From a virus (Duplodnaviria; Caudoviricetes): a stretch of 64,000 bases of DNA. The notes beneath the pieces are model-generated. The model ran no database searches. It was not told the origin of the DNA and saw only the letters and a program-made list of their open reading frames with translations. Location: IMG/VR virus record IMGVR_UViG_3300038679_000357, positions 1-64,000 of that record, one strand, 5' to 3'. The stretch's first letter is position 1. Each line of letters starts with the position of its first letter. Made by a program: the position numbers and the translations under genes. This document shows positions 9,410 through 41,370 of this stretch, piece by piece.

Positions 9410-9521
9410 TGGTGTGCCGTGGAAGGACTTGAACCTCCAACTCCACTGGCGGTGGATAGTCTGCCCGTACGAAGCAGTAGTTGCCGTTGCCAGTGGCATG
9501 ATGCCATTTCACTACACGCAC
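9410..9521 (-). ncRNA. tRNA-shaped RNA with expanded anticodon arm
   Basis: Acceptor, D arm, T arm and CCA present; CCACTGGC/GCCAGTGG encloses ~38 nt. Confidence 0.75.
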
Positions 9522-9528
9522 ATTTATC

Positions 9529-9637
9529 TGGAACGACCAGCGGGAGTCGAACCTGCATCCATAACTTTCACGGACTCTAACCGTCGGCACGGTATCCGGT
9601 ATCTGATAGTAGTATCTTCCAATGCCACGATCGTTCA
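9529..9637 (-). ncRNA. tRNA-shaped RNA with expanded centre
   Basis: GAACGATC/GGTCGTTC, T arm GCAGG-TTCGACT-CCCGC, 3' CCA; no 7-nt anticodon loop. Confidence 0.7.
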
Positions 9638-9638
9638 C

Positions 9639-9715
9639 TGGTGGAAACAACAGGGCTCGAACCTGTGACCTTCTGCGTGTGGAGCAGACGCTCTAGCCAA
9701 CTGAGCTACGCTTCC
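9639..9715 (-). tRNA. tRNA-Val(CAC), C33
   Basis: TCTGC-TCCACAC-GCAGA. Confidence 0.9.
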
Positions 9716-11534: not shown

Positions 11535-11620
11535 TGGAGCCGTGGGCGGGACTCGAACCCGCATATGGATTTCTCCAGACGATTTTGCAGATCGCTGCAT
11601 AGCCATTCTGCCACCACGGC
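11535..11620 (-). tRNA. tRNA-Cys(GCA) with long variable arm
   Basis: GCGAT-CTGCAAA-ATCGT, variable region CTGGAGAAATCCATAT. Confidence 0.9.
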
Positions 11621-17043: not shown

Positions 17044-18306
17044 AAAAATCCTACATAGAAAGAAGGATTTTGTAAAGTTTTACGGTATAAGTAATCATGA
17101 AGGTGAATAAGACATTCAAATACAGAATCTATCCAACCAAAGAACAGGCTGTTCTTTTGGCAAAGCACTTCGGAGCCAAACGCTTCATCTTCAATCATTT
17201 CCTTGATCAACGGAAGACCGCCTACCTTGAAACCAAGAAGTCACTGTCTTATTATGATAATGCTAAAAGCCTAACCGAAATGAAACACTCGGAAGAATTT
17301 GCATGGATGAAAGAAATTAACTCGCAATCTCTTCAGGCTTCGTTAAGGGACTTGGATGCTGCTTACAACCGCTTCTTCTCCAAGCAAGGTAAGTTCCCTA
17401 AGTTCAAGTCAAAGGATGATAAGCAGAGTTTCAGGATACCGCAGAATGTCTACTACGAAGACGGTCTATTGGATGTTCCGAAGTTCAAAGAGCCTATCAA
17501 GGTGGTTGAAGACCGCCCTTTGACTGGTAAGATACTTTTCGCCACTATGTCCAAGACTTCTACGGGCAAGTATTTCGTTTCGATTACCTGTGAGGCAGAG
17601 CATGTATCCTTCAAGAAGACAAAGGGGCAAATCGGAGTCGATCTCGGCTTAAAGGACTTAGCAGTTCTTTCAGACGGAACTAGATACAAGAATGTCAGAA
17701 GTACCAAAAAGCATGAAAGGAAGTTGGCACACGAACAGAGGCAGTTGAGTAAGAAGAAAAAGGGTTCTGTAAATAGAGCCAAACAGAAGATCAAAGTGGC
17801 AAGGGTTAACGAGAAGATTGCTAATTCTCGTAATGATCACATCCACAAGATCACGACAGGCATAGTTCGTGAAAACCAAACGATCTGTGTCGAGAGCCTA
17901 TCTGTGGCAAACATGATGAAAAATCATTGTCTTGCCAAAGGGATAGCCGATGTCGCATGGGGTGAAATCCTATGGCAGTTGAAGTACAAGTCGGAATGGA
18001 ACGGAAGACAGTTGTTGATTGTAGATAGGTTTTTCCCTTCCAGCAAGACCTGTAATTACTGTAAGTTCGTAAATCAAGGCTTGACCTTGGCTGATAGAAC
18101 TTGGATTTGCCCTAGATGTGGAAAAGAATTAGAAAGAGACTTGAATGCTTCGAGGAATATCTTGGAGCAGGGTCTTAACGGTCTAAACGATTTAAACTCT
18201 GGTTTCGGAACGAAGTCGGAGGATAAACAAAAACGAGGGGAGGCATTGCCAAGAGGCAAGTCAAGGAACCTCGAAACCACACCATCTTTAGTGGTGGGGT
18301 AGTTCA
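17044..18306 (+). mobile_element. IS200/IS605-family TnpB-only element
   Basis: Left-end hairpin AAAATCCT/AGGATTTT, right end GTAGTTCA, no TSD, flanks rejoin in frame. Confidence 0.85.
17097..18302 (+). CDS. tnpB: RNA-guided endonuclease TnpB
   Basis: N-terminal HTH, GVDLGLK, VESL, CNYC/CPRC Zn finger, RDLNASRNI. Confidence 0.95.
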   Translation: MKVNKTFKYRIYPTKEQAVLLAKHFGAKRFIFNHFLDQRKTAYLETKKSLSYYDNAKSLTEMKHSEEFAWMKEINSQSLQASLRDLDAAYNRFFSKQGKFPKFKSKDDKQSFRIPQNVYYEDGLLDVPKFKEPIKVVEDRPLTGKILFATMSKTSTGKYFVSITCEAEHVSFKKTKGQIGVDLGLKDLAVLSDGTRYKNVRSTKKHERKLAHEQRQLSKKKKGSVNRAKQKIKVARVNEKIANSRNDHIHKITTGIVRENQTICVESLSVANMMKNHCLAKGIADVAWGEILWQLKYKSEWNGRQLLIVDRFFPSSKTCNYCKFVNQGLTLADRTWICPRCGKELERDLNASRNILEQGLNGLNDLNSGFGTKSEDKQKRGEALPRGKSRNLETTPSLVVG

Positions 18307-18372: not shown

Positions 18373-18447
18373 GTTCCCGTAGCCAAGCGGTAAGGCAGAT
18401 GTCTCTAAAACATCTATGCGTGGGTTCGATCCCCATCGGGAGCGCCA
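18373..18447 (+). tRNA. amber suppressor tRNA(CTA)
   Basis: GTTCCCG/CGGGAGC, GCCAAGCGGTAAGGC, GATGT-CTCTAAA-ACATC, G73, CCA. Confidence 0.92.
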
Positions 18448-30145: not shown

Positions 30146-30253
30146 AACGGGAGACGGGACTCGAACCCGCGAAGCTCGCGCATTGGCAAGCGCCTCGATA
30201 CCAACTTCTCACTAACCACTCTTGTGAAGTGTGCCATATTACACCACTCCCGT
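30146..30253 (-). ncRNA. tRNA-Gly(GCC)-like RNA with ~30 nt insert after the D arm
   Basis: ACGGGAG/CTCCCGT, D arm, TTGCCAA loop, T arm; no encoded CCA. Confidence 0.65.
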
Positions 30254-30687: not shown

Positions 30688-30819
30688 TGGTGCCCGCCAG
30701 CCGGATTCCAACCGACCTCAGCACCCGCCGGTGCCTTCGCTTCACTACTCCGTCCATATGCGAAAAGAACGGAGCCGACGTCGAACGAGTGGGTTTTGCA
30801 ATTCCCATTATGCGGGGCA
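30688..30819 (-). ncRNA. tRNA-shaped RNA (132 nt) with long arms
   Basis: Acceptor, TGGG/CCCA D stem, CTCCGTTC/GGACGGAG, variable arm GCACC/GGTGC, T arm, CCA. Confidence 0.7.
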
Positions 30820-30825
30820 TTAAAT

Positions 30826-30974
30826 TGGACCGCGTGGGGAGATTCGAACTCCCGGTACGGGCGTGTCGAGGTCCATGCGCATGGGCGCGGGATCGTTTCC
30901 GTACTTTATGCGGCTCAGCCACTTGGAACCTGCAGGAATGCGCATCCCTACAAGCCTCGCAGCCGCCACGCGGA
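30826..30974 (-). ncRNA. tRNA-shaped RNA (149 nt) with ~50 nt anticodon insert
   Basis: CCGCGTG/CACGCGG, GGGAT/ATCCC, GGGAG-TTCGAAT-CTCCC, CCA. Confidence 0.75.
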
Positions 30975-33466: not shown

Positions 33467-33542
33467 TGGAGCCCGCGCCCGGAATTGGACCGGGGACCTT
33501 CAACTTACCAAGTTGACGCTCTACCAACTGAGCTACGTGGGC
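33467..33542 (-). tRNA. tRNA-Thr(GGT)
   Basis: TCAAC-TTGGTAA-GTTGA. Confidence 0.95.
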
Positions 33543-33554
33543 ATTAAAAAGAAT

Positions 33555-33721
33555 CCGACCGACCGGCGGGAGTCGAACCCGCAAATAATGCCCGCGTTGG
33601 ACTGCAGACATTTGGACGGTTTTTGCCATGATTCCAAACTACGCAGGATCGCCCTGCGCGGTCATTCCTTGTTAACGGCTTGACCTCGACCGTGTATGCC
33701 ATTTCCACCACGGTCAGTCGG
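33555..33721 (-). ncRNA. tRNA-shaped RNA (167 nt) with four hairpins replacing the anticodon arm
   Basis: 11-bp acceptor CCGACTGACCG/CGGTCGGTCGG, Leu-type D arm, canonical T arm. Confidence 0.8.
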
Positions 33722-33734
33722 CTTCTTTGATTAT

Positions 33735-34391
33735 TTATTCCTTAGACAATTCGACGTTCCAGTACAATCTTGACAAGAACCTTTCCCACTGTTGTGGTAT
33801 TTGGATCGGAGCGATAATCTTCCGAGAGCGCCGACTGTTTCTAATTTCAGTTGAAGTTGGCACATACGGCTTTTTCATCAGCTTCATGCCAGCTTCGTCT
33901 GGGAGCATGTCCTTCTTCTTATCGTTGCAAGAAATACAGGAGAGGACGATGTTCGTCCATTCTGTACGTCCGCCACGACACCTTGGAATGACGTGATCGA
34001 GATTCAAGGTCGTTTCTTCCTCGGTTGCGCCACAGTATTGACACTTATGGCGGTCTCGAATAAAAAGATTTATCCTTGAGAATCTCGCTGGGAGTTTGCC
34101 ATTCTTGCCGTCCAACCGACTACAGGTTGAGGCATGGTTGTAATAACGAAGAGCGATAACATGCGGGACTGGCAGTTCTCCAGAAGCGAGTTTAATCACT
34201 TCCTTTTCAGAGGCAATGCAAAGATCCTTTGCAGCCTGCCAATCTCCGAGCCACTCATCGAACGACCTTGCCTGGTCGTATTCATCGATGACATCAGCTC
34301 TTTCATTATAGAGGAGTTGTACGGCTCTGTGTAGAGAAACGGAATAGACAGCCTGCCGCAAGGCGTCTAACACCAACACTGGATGTTTCAT
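33735..34391 (-). CDS. HNH endonuclease (McrA-like)
   Basis: NLFIRDRHKCQYCG, LDHVIPR, WTNIVLSCISCNDKK. Confidence 0.9.
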   Translation of the reverse strand: MKHPVLVLDALRQAVYSVSLHRAVQLLYNERADVIDEYDQARSFDEWLGDWQAAKDLCIASEKEVIKLASGELPVPHVIALRYYNHASTCSRLDGKNGKLPARFSRINLFIRDRHKCQYCGATEEETTLNLDHVIPRCRGGRTEWTNIVLSCISCNDKKKDMLPDEAGMKLMKKPYVPTSTEIRNSRRSRKIIAPIQIPQQWERFLSRLYWNVELSKE

Positions 34392-34455: not shown

Positions 34456-34544
34456 TGGTGGGTGCTGAAGGAGTTGAACCTTCCGCCCGCCGCCGCACAT
34501 ATTAAAGGCGCGGGTTTTACAGACCCGCGTGTGGAACAGCACCC
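34456..34544 (-). tRNA. tRNA-Tyr(GTA) apparently lacking a D arm
   Basis: GGGTGCT/AGCACCC, GCGGGT-CTGTAAA-ACCCGC, long variable region, CCA. Confidence 0.75.
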
Positions 34545-35034: not shown

Positions 35035-35111
35035 TGGTATCCCGAGTGGGACTCGAACCCACACCATTGGGAGCTTAAATCCCATGCATCTGCCAATTGT
35101 GCTACCGGGAC
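35035..35111 (-). tRNA. tRNA-Leu(TAA) without long variable arm
   Basis: TGGGA-TTTAAGC-TCCCA, 5-nt variable loop. Confidence 0.85.
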
Positions 35112-35234: not shown

Positions 35235-35311
35235 TGGTACCGCAGGGGGGACTCGAACCCCCAACATTCAGATTTTGAATCTGACGCGACTGCCAATTGC
35301 ACCACTGCGGC
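35235..35311 (-). tRNA. tRNA-Leu(CAA) without long variable arm
   Basis: TCAGA-TTCAAAA-TCTGA, 5-nt variable loop. Confidence 0.85.
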
Positions 35312-40101: not shown

Positions 40102-41370
40102 TTAAGGATCAATACATGTGAATGTTAATGTTGGCGGGCAACTGCCAAAATAACAAGTGTTAAGCGTTGCCAAACCAACCGGGCATTCAATACTACCGAA
40201 TGTATAATTAGCGAAAAATCCTCCGGAACCAATATCTCCAGTCCACGATCCAAGTCCGCCGTAAATGCTAGATCCTGTAAGATCCCCATTCCAGGTGCAA
40301 CTGCCTTCGCTAACCCATCTTGAATAATGCTCACCTAACTCCAAACAATATAAATTTTCGCAACAATCTGTGCAATCATCAATAACTATAGAAAAAGAGG
40401 AACTACTGGATGACAAACTGGATGAGCTAAAAGATAAGCTAGATGAGCTAAAAGATAAGCTAGATGAGCTAGAAGATAAACTTGATGAGCTAGAAGATAA
40501 ACTTGATGAGCTAGAAGATAAACTTGATGAGCTGGACGACAAACTGGATGAGCTAGACGACAAACTTGACGAACTTGACGACAAACTGGATGAACTTGAC
40601 GACAAACTGAATGAGCTGGAACTACTGGACGAGCTACTGCTTGAACTTGATGTTAACGACACTGAGACTAGAAACGTAATATCATCGTCAAGATCAGAAT
40701 AAATCGATGTGAATGTGTAATATAGCCCGCCATAATAGAAAATATTGTGATCAGTCAGTTCAATTTCAACTCCATACACGACCAATACACCGTCTTCGTT
40801 TCTGACCTCAAACGGGATGCCGTTAACAAACAAGGTCATATAGCGATTTGTTTCCATATGGGATCGGAAACAAGCGAATTCGCCATCATAAAGGGCAATC
40901 GACCTTTCGTCACCTTCATTTACTAACGGACAACTAATGTAAGCGTCACTGGAAGAGCTGCTAAAAATTGGTGTTTCTGTGTAAGAGAAAGTCCAATCAA
41001 ATCCAACCTCACCTTCATTTACGCCAAGAGAAGTGGACAATCTAAGGTAAACGTAGGCAGAGCAATAGCCATCGATCATGGGAACTGATAGGGAAGTAGA
41101 CGAAGAGGAGAACTCATACGGCAATTCGCCATCAACCACTTCAAACGTATCTGATACCCAATATTTCAGAACTCCATCGTCAAGAATCAAAGATTTCGGA
41201 GGAATAACGGTAAACGTCAGATTAGATATTGAATCCACACCTTCAAAACAGACCGACAAAACAACCAGTCGGCTATCAGACCCAGGAGAAGAGGTCCCGA
41301 AGTCTACGTGTGTGATCTCACCGACCGCAGAGCCATCAAATGGATCATGTTGTCTTGTTTTTATCAGCAT
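40102..41370 (-). CDS. Ser-rich repeat protein (putative virion/surface protein)
   Basis: 422 aa, (SSSSSSL)n linker, Cys/Gly-rich C-terminus. Confidence 0.75.
   Translation of the reverse strand: MLIKTRQHDPFDGSAVGEITHVDFGTSSPGSDSRLVVLSVCFEGVDSISNLTFTVIPPKSLILDDGVLKYWVSDTFEVVDGELPYEFSSSSTSLSVPMIDGYCSAYVYLRLSTSLGVNEGEVGFDWTFSYTETPIFSSSSSDAYISCPLVNEGDERSIALYDGEFACFRSHMETNRYMTLFVNGIPFEVRNEDGVLVVYGVEIELTDHNIFYYGGLYYTFTSIYSDLDDDITFLVSVSLTSSSSSSSSSSSSSFSLSSSSSSLSSSSSSLSSSSSSLSSSSSSLSSSSSSLSSSSSSLSSSSSSLSFSSSSLSFSSSSLSSSSSSFSIVIDDCTDCCENLYCLELGEHYSRWVSEGSCTWNGDLTGSSIYGGLGSWTGDIGSGGFFANYTFGSIECPVGLATLNTCYFGSCPPTLTFTCIDP
40400..40655. repeat. 21-nt degenerate tandem repeat
   Basis: gatgagctagaagataaactt-type units. 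Confidence 0.9.

What the first reader, a model, noticed from the sequence alone, without database searches (positions are those of the whole stretch)
33555..33721. 167-nt ornate tRNA-shaped RNA with four hairpins in place of the anticodon arm
11-bp acceptor helix, Leu-type D arm and canonical T arm enclose GGTCA/TGACC, GCGCAGG/CCTGCGT, TTTGGA/TCCAAA and TGTCTGC/GCGGGCA. Loops 1 and 3 are complementary (GCCGT/ATGGC), suggesting a kissing interaction. It is too short for a group I intron and has no CCA. It could be a tRNA-elbow mimic or decoy processed with the array (inference).
Basis: partly seen in the sequence, partly recalled or inferred. Interest (0 to 1): 0.75.

Follow-up and report, generated by a model that had tools for sequence, protein, structure and literature searches.

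The report
Conserved tRNA-shaped non-decoding phage RNA
A giant groundwater phage and two related phage lineages carry, inside their large tRNA gene arrays, a conserved 155-167-base RNA that keeps the top half of a tRNA but has a long locked arm instead of an anticodon, so it most likely mimics a tRNA rather than decoding; its layout resembles phage T4's RNAC, whose role is still unknown.

Summary
The element is real. It lies on the minus strand at 33555-33721, between an HNH endonuclease gene and tRNA-Thr(GGU), in a 46-tRNA array of a 255-kb phage.

I found homologues at the same array position in two other metagenomic phage lineages (L017; L018/L019/L025).

- **Selection.** The three versions are 70-84% identical. 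Synonymous sites of the adjacent HNH gene are only 48-63% identical. Eight nested pairs show compensatory changes.
- **No CCA.** None of the versions encodes CCA, whereas all 99 array tRNAs checked do.
- **Not a tRNA with an intron.** ARAGORN's intron mode gives a different anticodon in each lineage (Cys, Arg, Ala).
- **Conserved fold.** Terminal helix, class-II-type D arm, a ~70-nt long arm (P1, P2, tip hairpin H2 with a GNRA-like loop), a variable-arm hairpin H4, and a T arm.
Hairpins 1 and 3 are window-specific and compete with P1/P2. The proposed "kissing" pair is the conserved helix P2.
- **New pseudoknot.** The H4 loop pairs with the segment just 3' of H2. It covaries at 4 of 5 pairs.

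It matches no Rfam family, and no expression data exist. The closest analogue is T4 RNAC (species 1 RNA), by layout only. The function, tRNA mimic or decoy, is inferred.

The scan had already noted this same locus from an overlapping window. It found it on no other DNA.

The parts
33555..33721 (-). Whole tRNA-shaped RNA gene (167 nt as delimited by the 11-bp helix). True ends are unknown.
   Evidence: The covariance model R1 matches 33551-33725 at 174 bits and only once in the 255-kb genome.
33711..33721 (-). 5' strand of the terminal (acceptor-like) helix, CCGACUGACCG. Register 1 uses the last 7 nt and register 2 the first 7 nt.
   Evidence: The register-2-type helix (7 bp, A3 columns 4-10 with 162-168) is the only one kept in all three lineages.
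33691..33710 (-). Class-II-type D region (U8 G9, GUG/CAC stem, 11-nt loop with GG). The alternative is a CCGUG/CACGG stem.
   Evidence: Invariant in all lineages. It resembles the phage's own tRNA-Leu D arms. The best non-self R1 hits are tRNA-Leu at 27-34 bits.
33683..33687 (-). P1 5' strand, GAGGU (base of the long arm).
   Evidence: It pairs with 33615-33620. Two pairs change on both sides in the L018 lineage: A-U to C-G and G-C to A-U.
33615..33620 (-). P1 3' strand, ACCGUC (one G bulged).
33675..33679 (-). P2 5' strand, GCCGU.
   Evidence: GCC:GGC is invariant and nested in all lineages.
33625..33629 (-). P2 3' strand, AUGGC.
33641..33659 (-). H2, the tip hairpin of the long arm, with a GNRA-like pentaloop (GCGAU here, GAAAU in the relatives).
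   Evidence: Three pairs have changes on both sides. The loop was read.
33633..33637 (-). Pseudoknot strand J, UUGGA, just 3' of H2.
   Evidence: It pairs with the H4 loop UCCAA. The relatives have UCCAC pairing with GUGGA at the homologous place. Four of five pairs change on both sides. Duplex energies are -5.1, -10.9 and -9.5 kcal/mol.
33587..33612 (-). H4, the variable-arm-like hairpin (8-10 bp) with loop AG-NNNN-AC. Loop bases 33597-33601 (UCCAA) form the pseudoknot.
   Evidence: Three stem pairs have changes on both sides. Pseudoknot.
33566..33582 (-). T arm, GCGGG-UUCGACU-CCCGC.
   Evidence: The stem is invariant in all lineages.
33555..33565 (-). 3' strand of the terminal helix, CGGUCGGUCGG. 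It is followed by AUUC..., with no CCA.
33660..33664 (-). It lies in a 5-nt insertion absent from the relatives.
   Evidence: Forcing P1+P2 costs +7.6 kcal/mol here, against +1.9 (L017) and +0.5 (L018/L019).
33735..34391 (-). HNH homing-type endonuclease gene. Its stop codon lies 13 nt upstream of the RNA.
   Evidence: Pfam HNH_5 at 7.4e-16. The same adjacency occurs in L017, L018, L019 and L025.
33467..33542 (-). tRNA-Thr(GGU), 12 nt downstream. It is the next gene in all lineages.

Best explanation
It is a functional, non-decoding RNA derived from a class-II (Leu-type) tRNA.

**Shown**
- It is conserved in three phage lineages at the same place in the tRNA array, and it is under selection for structure.
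- It keeps an acceptor-like terminal helix, a D region with GG, and a canonical T arm. These are the elbow and the acceptor/T stack.
- In place of the anticodon arm it carries a ~70-nt arm (P1, P2, and H2 capped by a GNRA-like loop).
- Its variable-arm hairpin H4 is tied to that arm by a covarying 5-6-bp pseudoknot.
- It has no anticodon loop and no encoded CCA.

**Inferred**
- It is transcribed with the HNH gene and the tRNAs.
- RNase P cuts its 5' side, and RNase P cleavage of the next tRNA plus exonucleolytic trimming define its 3' side.
- It accumulates as a stable RNA.
- It then acts in trans as a tRNA mimic. It would occupy a protein that recognises tRNAs, especially class-II tRNAs, by elbow and variable arm, without being decoded, charged or cut.
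- The most concrete candidate is a decoy or competitor for host anti-phage tRNA nucleases. Examples are the Septu/retron-Eco7 type, which cut the variable loop of class-II tRNA-Tyr.
- In layout it is the counterpart of T4 RNAC.
For: **Homologues.** They lie directly after the HNH stop codon and before tRNA-Thr(GGU) in L017 (a 500-kb contig) and in L018/L019/L020/L025.

**Selection**
- The element is 70-84% identical between lineages. tRNA-Thr is 80-91% identical. Synonymous third positions of the adjacent HNH gene are only 48-63% identical.
- 91.6% of cells are paired. Eight pairs have changes on both sides, against 0-1 in slid controls and 2 of 500 shuffles.
- The pseudoknot is the most strongly covarying contiguous helix in an exhaustive scan, at 4 of 5 pairs. 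Loop shuffles within the target segment reach it at 0.03-0.09 in the window and 0.004-0.02 in the relatives.

**Not a decoder**
- No CCA is encoded in any lineage, against 46/46, 29/29 and 24/24 array tRNAs that end in CCA.
- ARAGORN's intron mode gives Cys(GCA), Arg(CCG) and Ala(GGC) for the three homologues.

**Strand.** The minus strand folds far better than the plus strand.

**Transcription.** There is no minus-strand terminator-like site between the HNH gene, the RNA and tRNA-Thr.

**Class-II origin.** The best non-self matches of model R1 are tRNA-Leu.

**Analogue.** T4 rnaC has a 7-position acceptor-like helix abutting a T arm, a ~60-nt arm, and a 10-bp hairpin. That hairpin's invariant loop, CGUCAA, is complementary to an invariant UUGACG at the tip of the arm.

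**Literature**
- The roles of RNAC and RNAD are unknown (PMC3014915, PMC9697503).
- Defences cut the tRNA-Tyr variable loop, and phage tRNA-Tyr acts as supplement or decoy (PMC13096335; bioRxiv 10.1101/2023.03.15.532788).

**Neighbourhood.** tRNA-Tyr lies within about 0.1-0.9 kb of the element in all lineages.
Against: - There is no expression, end-mapping or binding evidence of any kind. No RNA run was listed.
- Only three independent lineages exist, so the covariation statistics are weak. The pseudoknot rests on two independent states and on moving one alignment gap by one column.
- In the window's own sequence the minimum-energy fold uses hairpins 1 and 3. The consensus nested fold is 7.6 kcal/mol worse before the pseudoknot (-5.1) is counted.
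- The acceptor-like helix is imperfect in the L018 lineage: 5 of 7 pairs in the tRNA register and 6 of 7 in the shifted one. RNase P recognition is therefore assumed, not shown.
- The decoy role is an analogy from E. coli systems. The host and its defences are unknown.
- Adjacency to the HNH gene and to tRNA-Tyr is inherited synteny, not independent association.
Confidence: 0.6

Rival explanations
1. It is a cis-acting processing or insulating element. A tRNA-like module at the 3' end of the HNH mRNA gives RNase P a cleavage site, separates the endonuclease mRNA from the downstream tRNAs, and stabilises the mRNA's 3' end. It has no trans function.
For: - It starts 10-13 nt after the HNH stop codon in all three lineages.
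- There is no terminator-like site between the HNH gene and the RNA.
- The terminal helix and T arm are the best-conserved parts.
Against: - Any ordinary tRNA would do this job, and tRNA-Thr follows 12 nt later.
- It does not explain a conserved 70-nt arm, a GNRA-like tip loop and a covarying pseudoknot.
- The adjacency is inherited synteny.
Confidence: 0.15
2. It is an RNA partner of the adjacent HNH endonuclease, acting as a cofactor, scaffold or specificity element. The pair would form one mobile unit.
For: - There is strict HNH-RNA adjacency in every lineage found.
- The only close HNH homologues (81-85% identity) all carry the RNA.
Against: - The protein is a 218-aa HNH_5/HNH-only protein, which I read as an ordinary free-standing homing endonuclease.
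- More distant HNH relatives (38-51% identity) in L003-L005 have no tRNA or tRNA-like element nearby.
- Three other HNH ORFs in the array have no such RNA.
Confidence: 0.08
3. It is a decaying pseudogene of a class-II tRNA that picked up insertions. The hairpins are incidental.
For: - It lacks CCA and an anticodon loop.
- The interior is indel-rich between lineages.
- The acceptor helix is imperfect in the L018 lineage.
- The same array holds several other aberrant tRNA-like genes.
Against: - Identity of 70-84%, against 48-63% at neighbouring synonymous sites.
- Eight nested compensatory pairs plus four in the pseudoknot.
- The interior has z = -3.0.
- It is kept at one position in three lineages whose flanking proteins are only 46-85% identical.
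Confidence: 0.07
4. It is an intron-containing tRNA (ARAGORN: tRNA-Cys(GCA) with a 78-nt intron) that is spliced to a working tRNA.
For: - ARAGORN's intron mode calls it.
- It has U73 and a CUGCA motif, like the phage's class-II-like tRNA-Cys.
Against: - The proposed anticodon stem has 3 of 5 pairs.
- The homologues are called Arg(CCG) and Ala(GGC), with different 'introns'.
- The discriminator is not conserved: U, U, G.
- No group I intron or other ribozyme family matches.
- The insert is 59-78 nt. By my general knowledge that is far below the ~200 nt of the smallest bacterial tRNA group I introns.
- No RtcB was found in the genome.
Confidence: 0.02

Closest known systems
Phage T4 RNAC (species 1 RNA, rnaC, 139 nt) and its homologues in T4-like phages
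   Same: - It is encoded inside the phage tRNA cluster, co-oriented with the tRNAs, near a homing endonuclease gene (segB).
- It has an acceptor-like 7-position terminal helix abutting a canonical T arm.
- It has a long irregular hairpin where the anticodon arm would be.
- It has a ~10-bp hairpin just 5' of the T arm, whose stem covaries.
- That hairpin's loop is complementary to the distal part of the long arm.
- It has no anticodon.
- Its function is unknown (PMC3014915, PMC9697503).
   Different: - There is no detectable sequence homology. Model R1 does not hit T4 rnaC.
- T4 RNAC has no D arm. This RNA has a full class-II D region.
- The T4 loop-loop complementarity is invariant, so there it is untested by covariation.
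- The host and phage groups are different.
- Neither RNA is in Rfam.
Class-II tRNAs (tRNA-Leu in particular) of the same phage
   Same: - The U8-G9, 3-bp D stem, 11-nt D loop with GG, T arm, 7-bp acceptor and long variable-arm hairpin follow the class-II plan.
- The best non-self R1 hits are tRNA-Leu.
   Different: - It has no 5-bp/7-nt anticodon arm and no conserved anticodon.
- It has no encoded CCA, which every array tRNA has.
- It is 155-167 nt long.
- It is not called by ARAGORN in normal mode or by Rfam tRNA.
tmRNA tRNA-like domain
   Same: It has an acceptor helix plus T arm, with a long helix leaving the position of the anticodon arm. Pseudoknots are present.
   Different: - It has no G3-U70 (pair 3-70 is G-C here).
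- It has no CCA and no tag reading frame.
- It is less than half the size.
- ARAGORN finds no tmRNA.
YrlA / bacterial Y RNA-like RNAs (RF02553)
   Same: It is a tRNA-mimicking module (T arm, D arm) in a non-coding RNA. Such RNAs are also found in phages.
   Different: - The Rfam match is 28.1 bits against a gathering score of 69.
- That match spans this T arm plus the D arm of the next tRNA, so it is an artefact.
- In YrlA the RNA ends lie in the Ro-binding stem, not in the acceptor helix (my general knowledge).
- The genome has no TROVE/Rsr gene.
Phage tRNA-Tyr used against variable-loop-cutting defences (T5 and T6 against retron-Eco7 and Septu)
   Same: A class-II-shaped phage RNA from a tRNA array next to a homing endonuclease. 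Those phage tRNAs supplement, resist or act as decoys for nucleases that cut the class-II variable loop (PMC13096335; bioRxiv 10.1101/2023.03.15.532788).
   Different: - Those are real, decoding tRNAs.
- This RNA cannot decode.
- A role against such nucleases is only a hypothesis here.

Membership tests
tRNA (RF00005) | Cloverleaf with a 5-bp anticodon stem and a 7-nt loop bearing a conserved anticodon. | tested here: not met
   - Rfam gives no tRNA match, even at E up to 10. The only clan hit is tRNA-Sec at 13.7 bits.
- ARAGORN's normal mode is silent.
- ARAGORN's intron mode gives three different anticodons in the three homologues.
tRNA (RF00005) | A 3' CCA, which is encoded in every tRNA of these arrays. 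| tested here: not met
   - Array tRNAs ending in CCA: 46/46, 29/29 and 24/24.
- The element is followed by UCGG or GUUC.
tRNA (RF00005) | Acceptor/T-arm stack, with a D-loop GG and T-loop UUCRA elbow. | tested here: met
   The T arm and D region are invariant, and a terminal helix is present in all lineages. The three-dimensional elbow itself is not testable here.
tRNA with a group I intron | A group I catalytic core (P3-P9) inside the anticodon loop. | tested here: not met
   No Intron_gpI or other ribozyme family matches at E up to 10. The insert is 59-78 nt.
tmRNA | G3-U70, CCA, and a tag reading frame flanked by pseudoknots. | tested here: not met
   ARAGORN's tmRNA search is negative. 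Pair 3-70 is G-C and there is no CCA.
YrlA (RF02553) | A score at or above the gathering threshold, and a Ro/Rsr partner. | tested here: not met
   It scores 28.1 bits against 69, and the match straddles two genes. There is no TROVE domain in the genome.
T4 RNAC (species 1 RNA) | Sequence or profile homology to rnaC. | tested here: not met
   R1 does not match T4 70908-71046. A BLAST of the element against 50,697 phage records gives only T-arm-sized hits. The reverse test, an rnaC model searched against the window, was not run.
T4 RNAC (species 1 RNA) | Layout: in a tRNA cluster; terminal helix plus T arm; a long arm; a second hairpin with a loop-to-arm complementarity; no anticodon. | tested here: met
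   for T4. for this family. This is resemblance of layout only.
Stable processed RNA (any family) | A discrete transcript with defined ends. | not testable with these tools
   No RNA run was listed for the window or for the L018-type homologue. The DNA runs are contigs only.

The most novel reading that the evidence does not exclude
This RNA and T4 RNAC are two unrelated-in-sequence members of one functional class: phage tRNA-array RNAs that keep the tRNA elbow and a locked, class-II-like variable arm. They would act as uncleavable, unchargeable mimics that neutralise host tRNA-targeting immunity, or capture another tRNA-binding host factor. If so, this would finally assign a role to RNAC.
Probability: 0.2. 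Interest if true: 0.8.

Novelty: new variant of a known kind. Interest (0 to 1): 0.6.

Why it matters
**The open question.** Phage tRNA arrays are now read mainly as codon supplements or as countermeasures to tRNA-cutting defences. The non-decoding RNAs that sit in these arrays have had no explanation since T4's species 1 and 2 RNAs were described. Reviews still list their roles as unknown (PMC3014915, PMC9697503).

**What this adds.** Here is a second, independent RNA with the same layout, in a distant group of huge environmental phages. It shows evidence of selection and a testable pseudoknot. That gives a comparative handle on the question. It suggests which features matter: elbow, terminal helix, long arm, and a locked variable-arm hairpin. 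It also yields a concrete experiment: express it against tRNA-targeting defences.

**A practical point for annotation.** Intron-tolerant tRNA finders will mislabel such genes. This one is called tRNA-Cys, tRNA-Arg and tRNA-Ala in its three versions.

Tried and rejected
**Searches that found no further homologue**
- Rfam at gathering and at E up to 10: no family.
- BLAST of the element against 50,697 phage records: only T-arm-sized hits.
- Four IMG/VR pattern scans: exact interior, D arm plus T loop, D arm junction, and P1/P2 plus T loop. None matched.
- Metagenome pattern scan: it re-found only the L018 contig, plus three chance matches in coding-like sequence.
- GTDB genome pattern scan: six matches, with about four expected by chance on my estimate. 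None has a tRNA or a D arm.
- Earlier scan notes: no look-alike in other genomes.
- R1 over four other IMG/VR phage records: nothing above tRNA level.

**Relatives sought through neighbouring proteins**
- Through the protein at 40102-41370: no homologues.

**Population and expression data**
- Population variation in four groundwater runs: the element is covered only in X1 and X2, with no differences there, so it is uninformative.
- Expression: no RNA holder was listed for the window or for L023.

**Readings rejected**
- The intron-containing tRNA-Cys reading.
- tmRNA, YrlA and group I intron (see the membership tests).
- Kissing of loops 1 and 3 as a window-only feature. It is re-read as the conserved nested helix P2.

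**Partner proteins in the genome**
- No Rsr/TROVE and no RtcB.
- One 787-aa protein carries a PolyA_pol head domain.

Full report
**Setting.** The window is the first 64 kb of a 255-kb IMG/VR phage record from groundwater. ARAGORN finds 46 tRNA genes in it. All but one are on the minus strand, and they cover every amino acid except Tyr. All 46 end in an encoded CCA. The finding lies on the minus strand. It starts 13 nt after the stop codon of an HNH endonuclease gene (33735-34391; Pfam HNH_5 at 7e-16). It ends 12 nt before tRNA-Thr(GGU).

**Checking the observation**

The minus-strand RNA of 33555-33721 has these features:
- a canonical T arm;
- a class-II-type D region, UG-GUG-(11-nt loop with GG)-CAC-G;
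- an 11-bp terminal helix;
- no CCA.

Its minimum-energy fold is -71 kcal/mol with z = -4.16, and 0 of 200 shuffles fold as well. The plus strand is much weaker, at -57.4 with z = -1.99. The 103-nt interior alone has z = -3.0.

No Rfam family matches. A YrlA hit of 28 bits, against a gathering score of 69, merely joins this T arm to the D arm of the next tRNA.

ARAGORN's intron mode calls the element tRNA-Cys(GCA) with a 78-nt intron. The proposed anticodon stem has only 3 of 5 pairs.

**Finding relatives**

DNA searches of phage records and IMG/VR gave nothing. The four groundwater runs that hold this DNA show no variation in the element.

The adjacent HNH protein has two close homologues at 81% and 85% identity. 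Their contigs are:
- L017, a syntenic 500-kb contig;
- L018, L019 and L020, three short contigs;
- L025, reached through the Tad6-like protein.

All of them carry a homologue of the element directly after the HNH stop codon and before tRNA-Thr(GGU). This gives three distinct lineages: the window, L017, and L018/L019/L025. L018 and L019 differ by one base. More lineages exist, but their contigs end before the array.

**Is it under selection?**

| Comparison between lineages | Identity |
|---|---|
| The element | 70-84% |
| Neighbouring tRNA-Thr | 80-91% |
| Synonymous third positions of the adjacent HNH gene | 48-63% |

The element therefore evolves far more slowly than nearby neutral sites.

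None of the versions encodes CCA, while 29/29 and 24/24 array tRNAs in L017 and L025 do. ARAGORN's intron mode names the homologues Arg(CCG) and Ala(GGC). The intron-bearing-tRNA reading is therefore an artefact.

**The conserved structure**

RNAalifold and pair counting on alignment A3 give this order of elements:
1. terminal helix;
2. D region;
3. P1 (GAGGU with ACC-UC, one G bulged);
4. internal loop (CAA opposite AAAA);
5. P2 (GCC with GGC, extended differently in each lineage);
6. tip hairpin H2;
7. hairpin H4;
8. T arm.

Overall, 91.6% of cells pair. Eight pairs change on both sides: two in P1, three in H2 and three in H4. Slid controls give 0-1, and 2 of 500 shuffles reach eight.

The H2 loop is GCGAU in the window and GAAAU in the relatives. 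Both are GNRA plus U, read.

They overlap the strands of P1. Forcing P1+P2 costs the following:
- +7.6 kcal/mol in the window;
- +1.9 in L017;
- +0.5 in L018/L019.

**A pseudoknot**

The H4 loop follows the pattern AG-NNNN-AC. In the window its centre is UCCA. In the relatives it is GUGG.

| Lineage | H4 loop bases | Segment just 3' of H2 | Pairs | Duplex energy (kcal/mol) |
|---|---|---|---|---|
| Window | UCCAA | UUGGA | 5 | -5.1 |
| L017 | GUGGAC | GUCCAC | 6 | -10.9 |
| L018 | GUGGAC | GUCCAC | 6 | -9.5 |

I moved one arbitrary gap by one column in an indel-rich stretch. The two versions then occupy the same five columns, and four of the five pairs change on both sides. In an exhaustive scan of all column pairs, this is the most strongly covarying contiguous helix.

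Loop shuffles within the target segment reach the observed length at these rates:
- window: 0.03-0.09;
- L017: 0.009-0.02;
- L018: 0.004-0.007.

This rests on two independent states. I rate the pseudoknot as likely, not proven. Counting it roughly offsets the energy gap between the two folds in the window.

**The terminal helix**

The 3' strand is a CGGU repeat, so two registers exist.
It holds in the window and in L017 (12 bp). In the L018 group it has two central mismatches and no extension.
- **A helix shifted by 4 nt** (7 bp, columns 4-10 with 162-168), combined with a CCGUG/CACGG stem, is the only version kept in all three lineages.

The ancestry is clearly class-II tRNA. The best non-self hits of model R1 are tRNA-Leu at 27-34 bits. 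Strict tRNA acceptor geometry does not seem to be required. That fits an RNA that is never charged.

**What it is not**

| Candidate | Why rejected |
|---|---|
| tmRNA | No G3-U70, no CCA, no tag frame; ARAGORN negative |
| YrlA | Sub-threshold artefact; no TROVE gene |
| Group I intron-bearing tRNA | No ribozyme family matches |
| Repeated element | One copy per genome |

**Closest known thing**

T4's tRNA cluster encodes rnaC (species 1, 139 nt) and rnaD just after segB and tRNA-Arg. Folding rnaC and three 79-86% identical homologues shows:
- a 7-position acceptor-like helix, with two U-U mismatches, abutting a canonical T arm;
- a ~60-nt long arm;
- a 10-bp hairpin immediately 5' of the T arm, whose stem covaries heavily;
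- an invariant hairpin loop, CGUCAA, complementary to an invariant UUGACG at the tip of the long arm (-7.5 kcal/mol).

That is the same layout as the present family, minus the D arm. There is no sequence homology, and rnaC is not in Rfam. Reviews and a 2022 omics study state that the roles of RNAC and RNAD are unknown (PMC3014915, PMC9697503).

**How it probably works**

The shown and inferred steps are these.
- **Shown:** the RNA is a conserved, structured, non-decoding derivative of a class-II tRNA, with an intact elbow and a variable-arm hairpin locked by a pseudoknot.
- **Inferred, transcription:** it is co-transcribed with the array. There is no terminator-like site between the HNH gene, the RNA and tRNA-Thr.
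- **Inferred, processing:** it is excised by RNase P and 3' trimming, and it accumulates as a stable RNA.
- **Inferred, action:** it acts by mimicry on a protein that reads tRNA shape.

The most concrete candidate comes from recent work. Septu and retron-Eco7 stop phages by cutting the variable loop of class-II tRNA-Tyr. Phage tRNA-Tyr genes, which sit in arrays next to homing endonucleases, counter this (PMC13096335; bioRxiv 10.1101/2023.03.15.532788). An RNA that offers a class-II body with a sequestered variable loop and no anticodon could bind such enzymes without being destroyed.

This is a hypothesis. I give it about 0.2-0.25. I give about 0.8 to the broader claim that this is a selected, functional tRNA-like RNA. 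Rivals are listed separately: a cis processing element, an HNH partner RNA, a pseudogene, and an intron-bearing tRNA.

The phage also encodes a 787-aa protein with a PolyA_pol (CCA-enzyme-type) head domain. Post-transcriptional addition of CCA cannot be excluded.

**Verdict**
- The element is a new, small family from three environmental phage lineages. It belongs to a kind known since the 1970s but never explained.
- It is worth following up. The comparison with T4 RNAC makes the question experimentally approachable in E. coli.

Noticed in passing
window 34456-34544 (-): This is the only tRNA-Tyr(GUA) of the genome, and ARAGORN's default mode does not call it. Aligned with the tRNA-Tyr of L017 and L025, it lacks about 12 nt covering the D arm. 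It keeps a 6-7-bp anticodon stem, the T arm and CCA.
   Followed up: partly
window 30146-30253 (-); L025 7989-8095; L017 14001-14110: A second CCA-less tRNA-like element (~108 nt; 7-bp acceptor, T arm, extra hairpins) is conserved in L025 and more weakly in L017. It is the only other array element without CCA that I saw.
   Followed up: partly
window 30689-30974 (-): There are two tandem oversized tRNA-shaped RNAs (~130 and ~148 nt) with acceptor helix, T arm and encoded CCA. The larger has two ~50-nt arms between the acceptor helix and the T arm. The same inter-tRNA gap, from Lys(CUU) to Ala(GGC), is also long in L017 (349 nt) and L025 (457 nt).
   Followed up: partly
window 9410-9640 (-): Two further unannotated tRNA-like genes lie between tRNA-Val(UAC) and tRNA-Val(CAC). 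One of them has a D loop (AAAUGGCAUCA) like that of the element studied here, and it ends in CCA.
   Followed up: no
window 11535-11620 (-): tRNA-Cys(GCA) is 86 nt long, with a class-II-type 3-bp D stem and a 16-nt variable arm. By my general knowledge that is unusual for tRNA-Cys. It is the closest paralogue of the element by simple alignment.
   Followed up: no
window 35035-35111 and 35235-35311 (-): tRNA-Leu(UAA) and tRNA-Leu(CAA) are only 77 nt long. The sequence of tRNA-Leu(CAA) has a 5-nt variable region. tRNA-Leu(CAA) of L025 is 85 nt. A class-I-shaped tRNA-Leu would be odd for a bacterial system (my general knowledge).
   Followed up: no
G000 215420-217783 (-), outside the window: A 787-aa protein has its only Pfam match in a PolyA_pol (CCA-adding or poly(A) polymerase) head domain at residues 561-690. 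This is not the usual layout of a CCA-adding enzyme (my general knowledge).
   Followed up: partly
window 17097-18302 (+) and 18373-18447 (+): A TnpB-like protein (OrfB_IS605 plus a Cas12f-like TNB domain) lies immediately upstream of the only plus-strand tRNA, the amber suppressor (CUA).
   Followed up: no
L017 14759-14834: The related 500-kb phage contig carries a tRNA with anticodon UUA (an ochre suppressor) inside its array. The window's phage has a CUA suppressor instead.
   Followed up: no
L043 (T4 70908-71046) and L044-L046: In T4 rnaC and three T4-like homologues, the loop CGUCAA of the second hairpin and UUGACG at the tip of the long arm are invariant and complementary. The hairpin's stem, by contrast, covaries at 7 of its 10 pairs. 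Some genome records annotate this RNA as tRNA-Met, as tRNA-OTHER, or as a hypothetical protein.
   Followed up: partly
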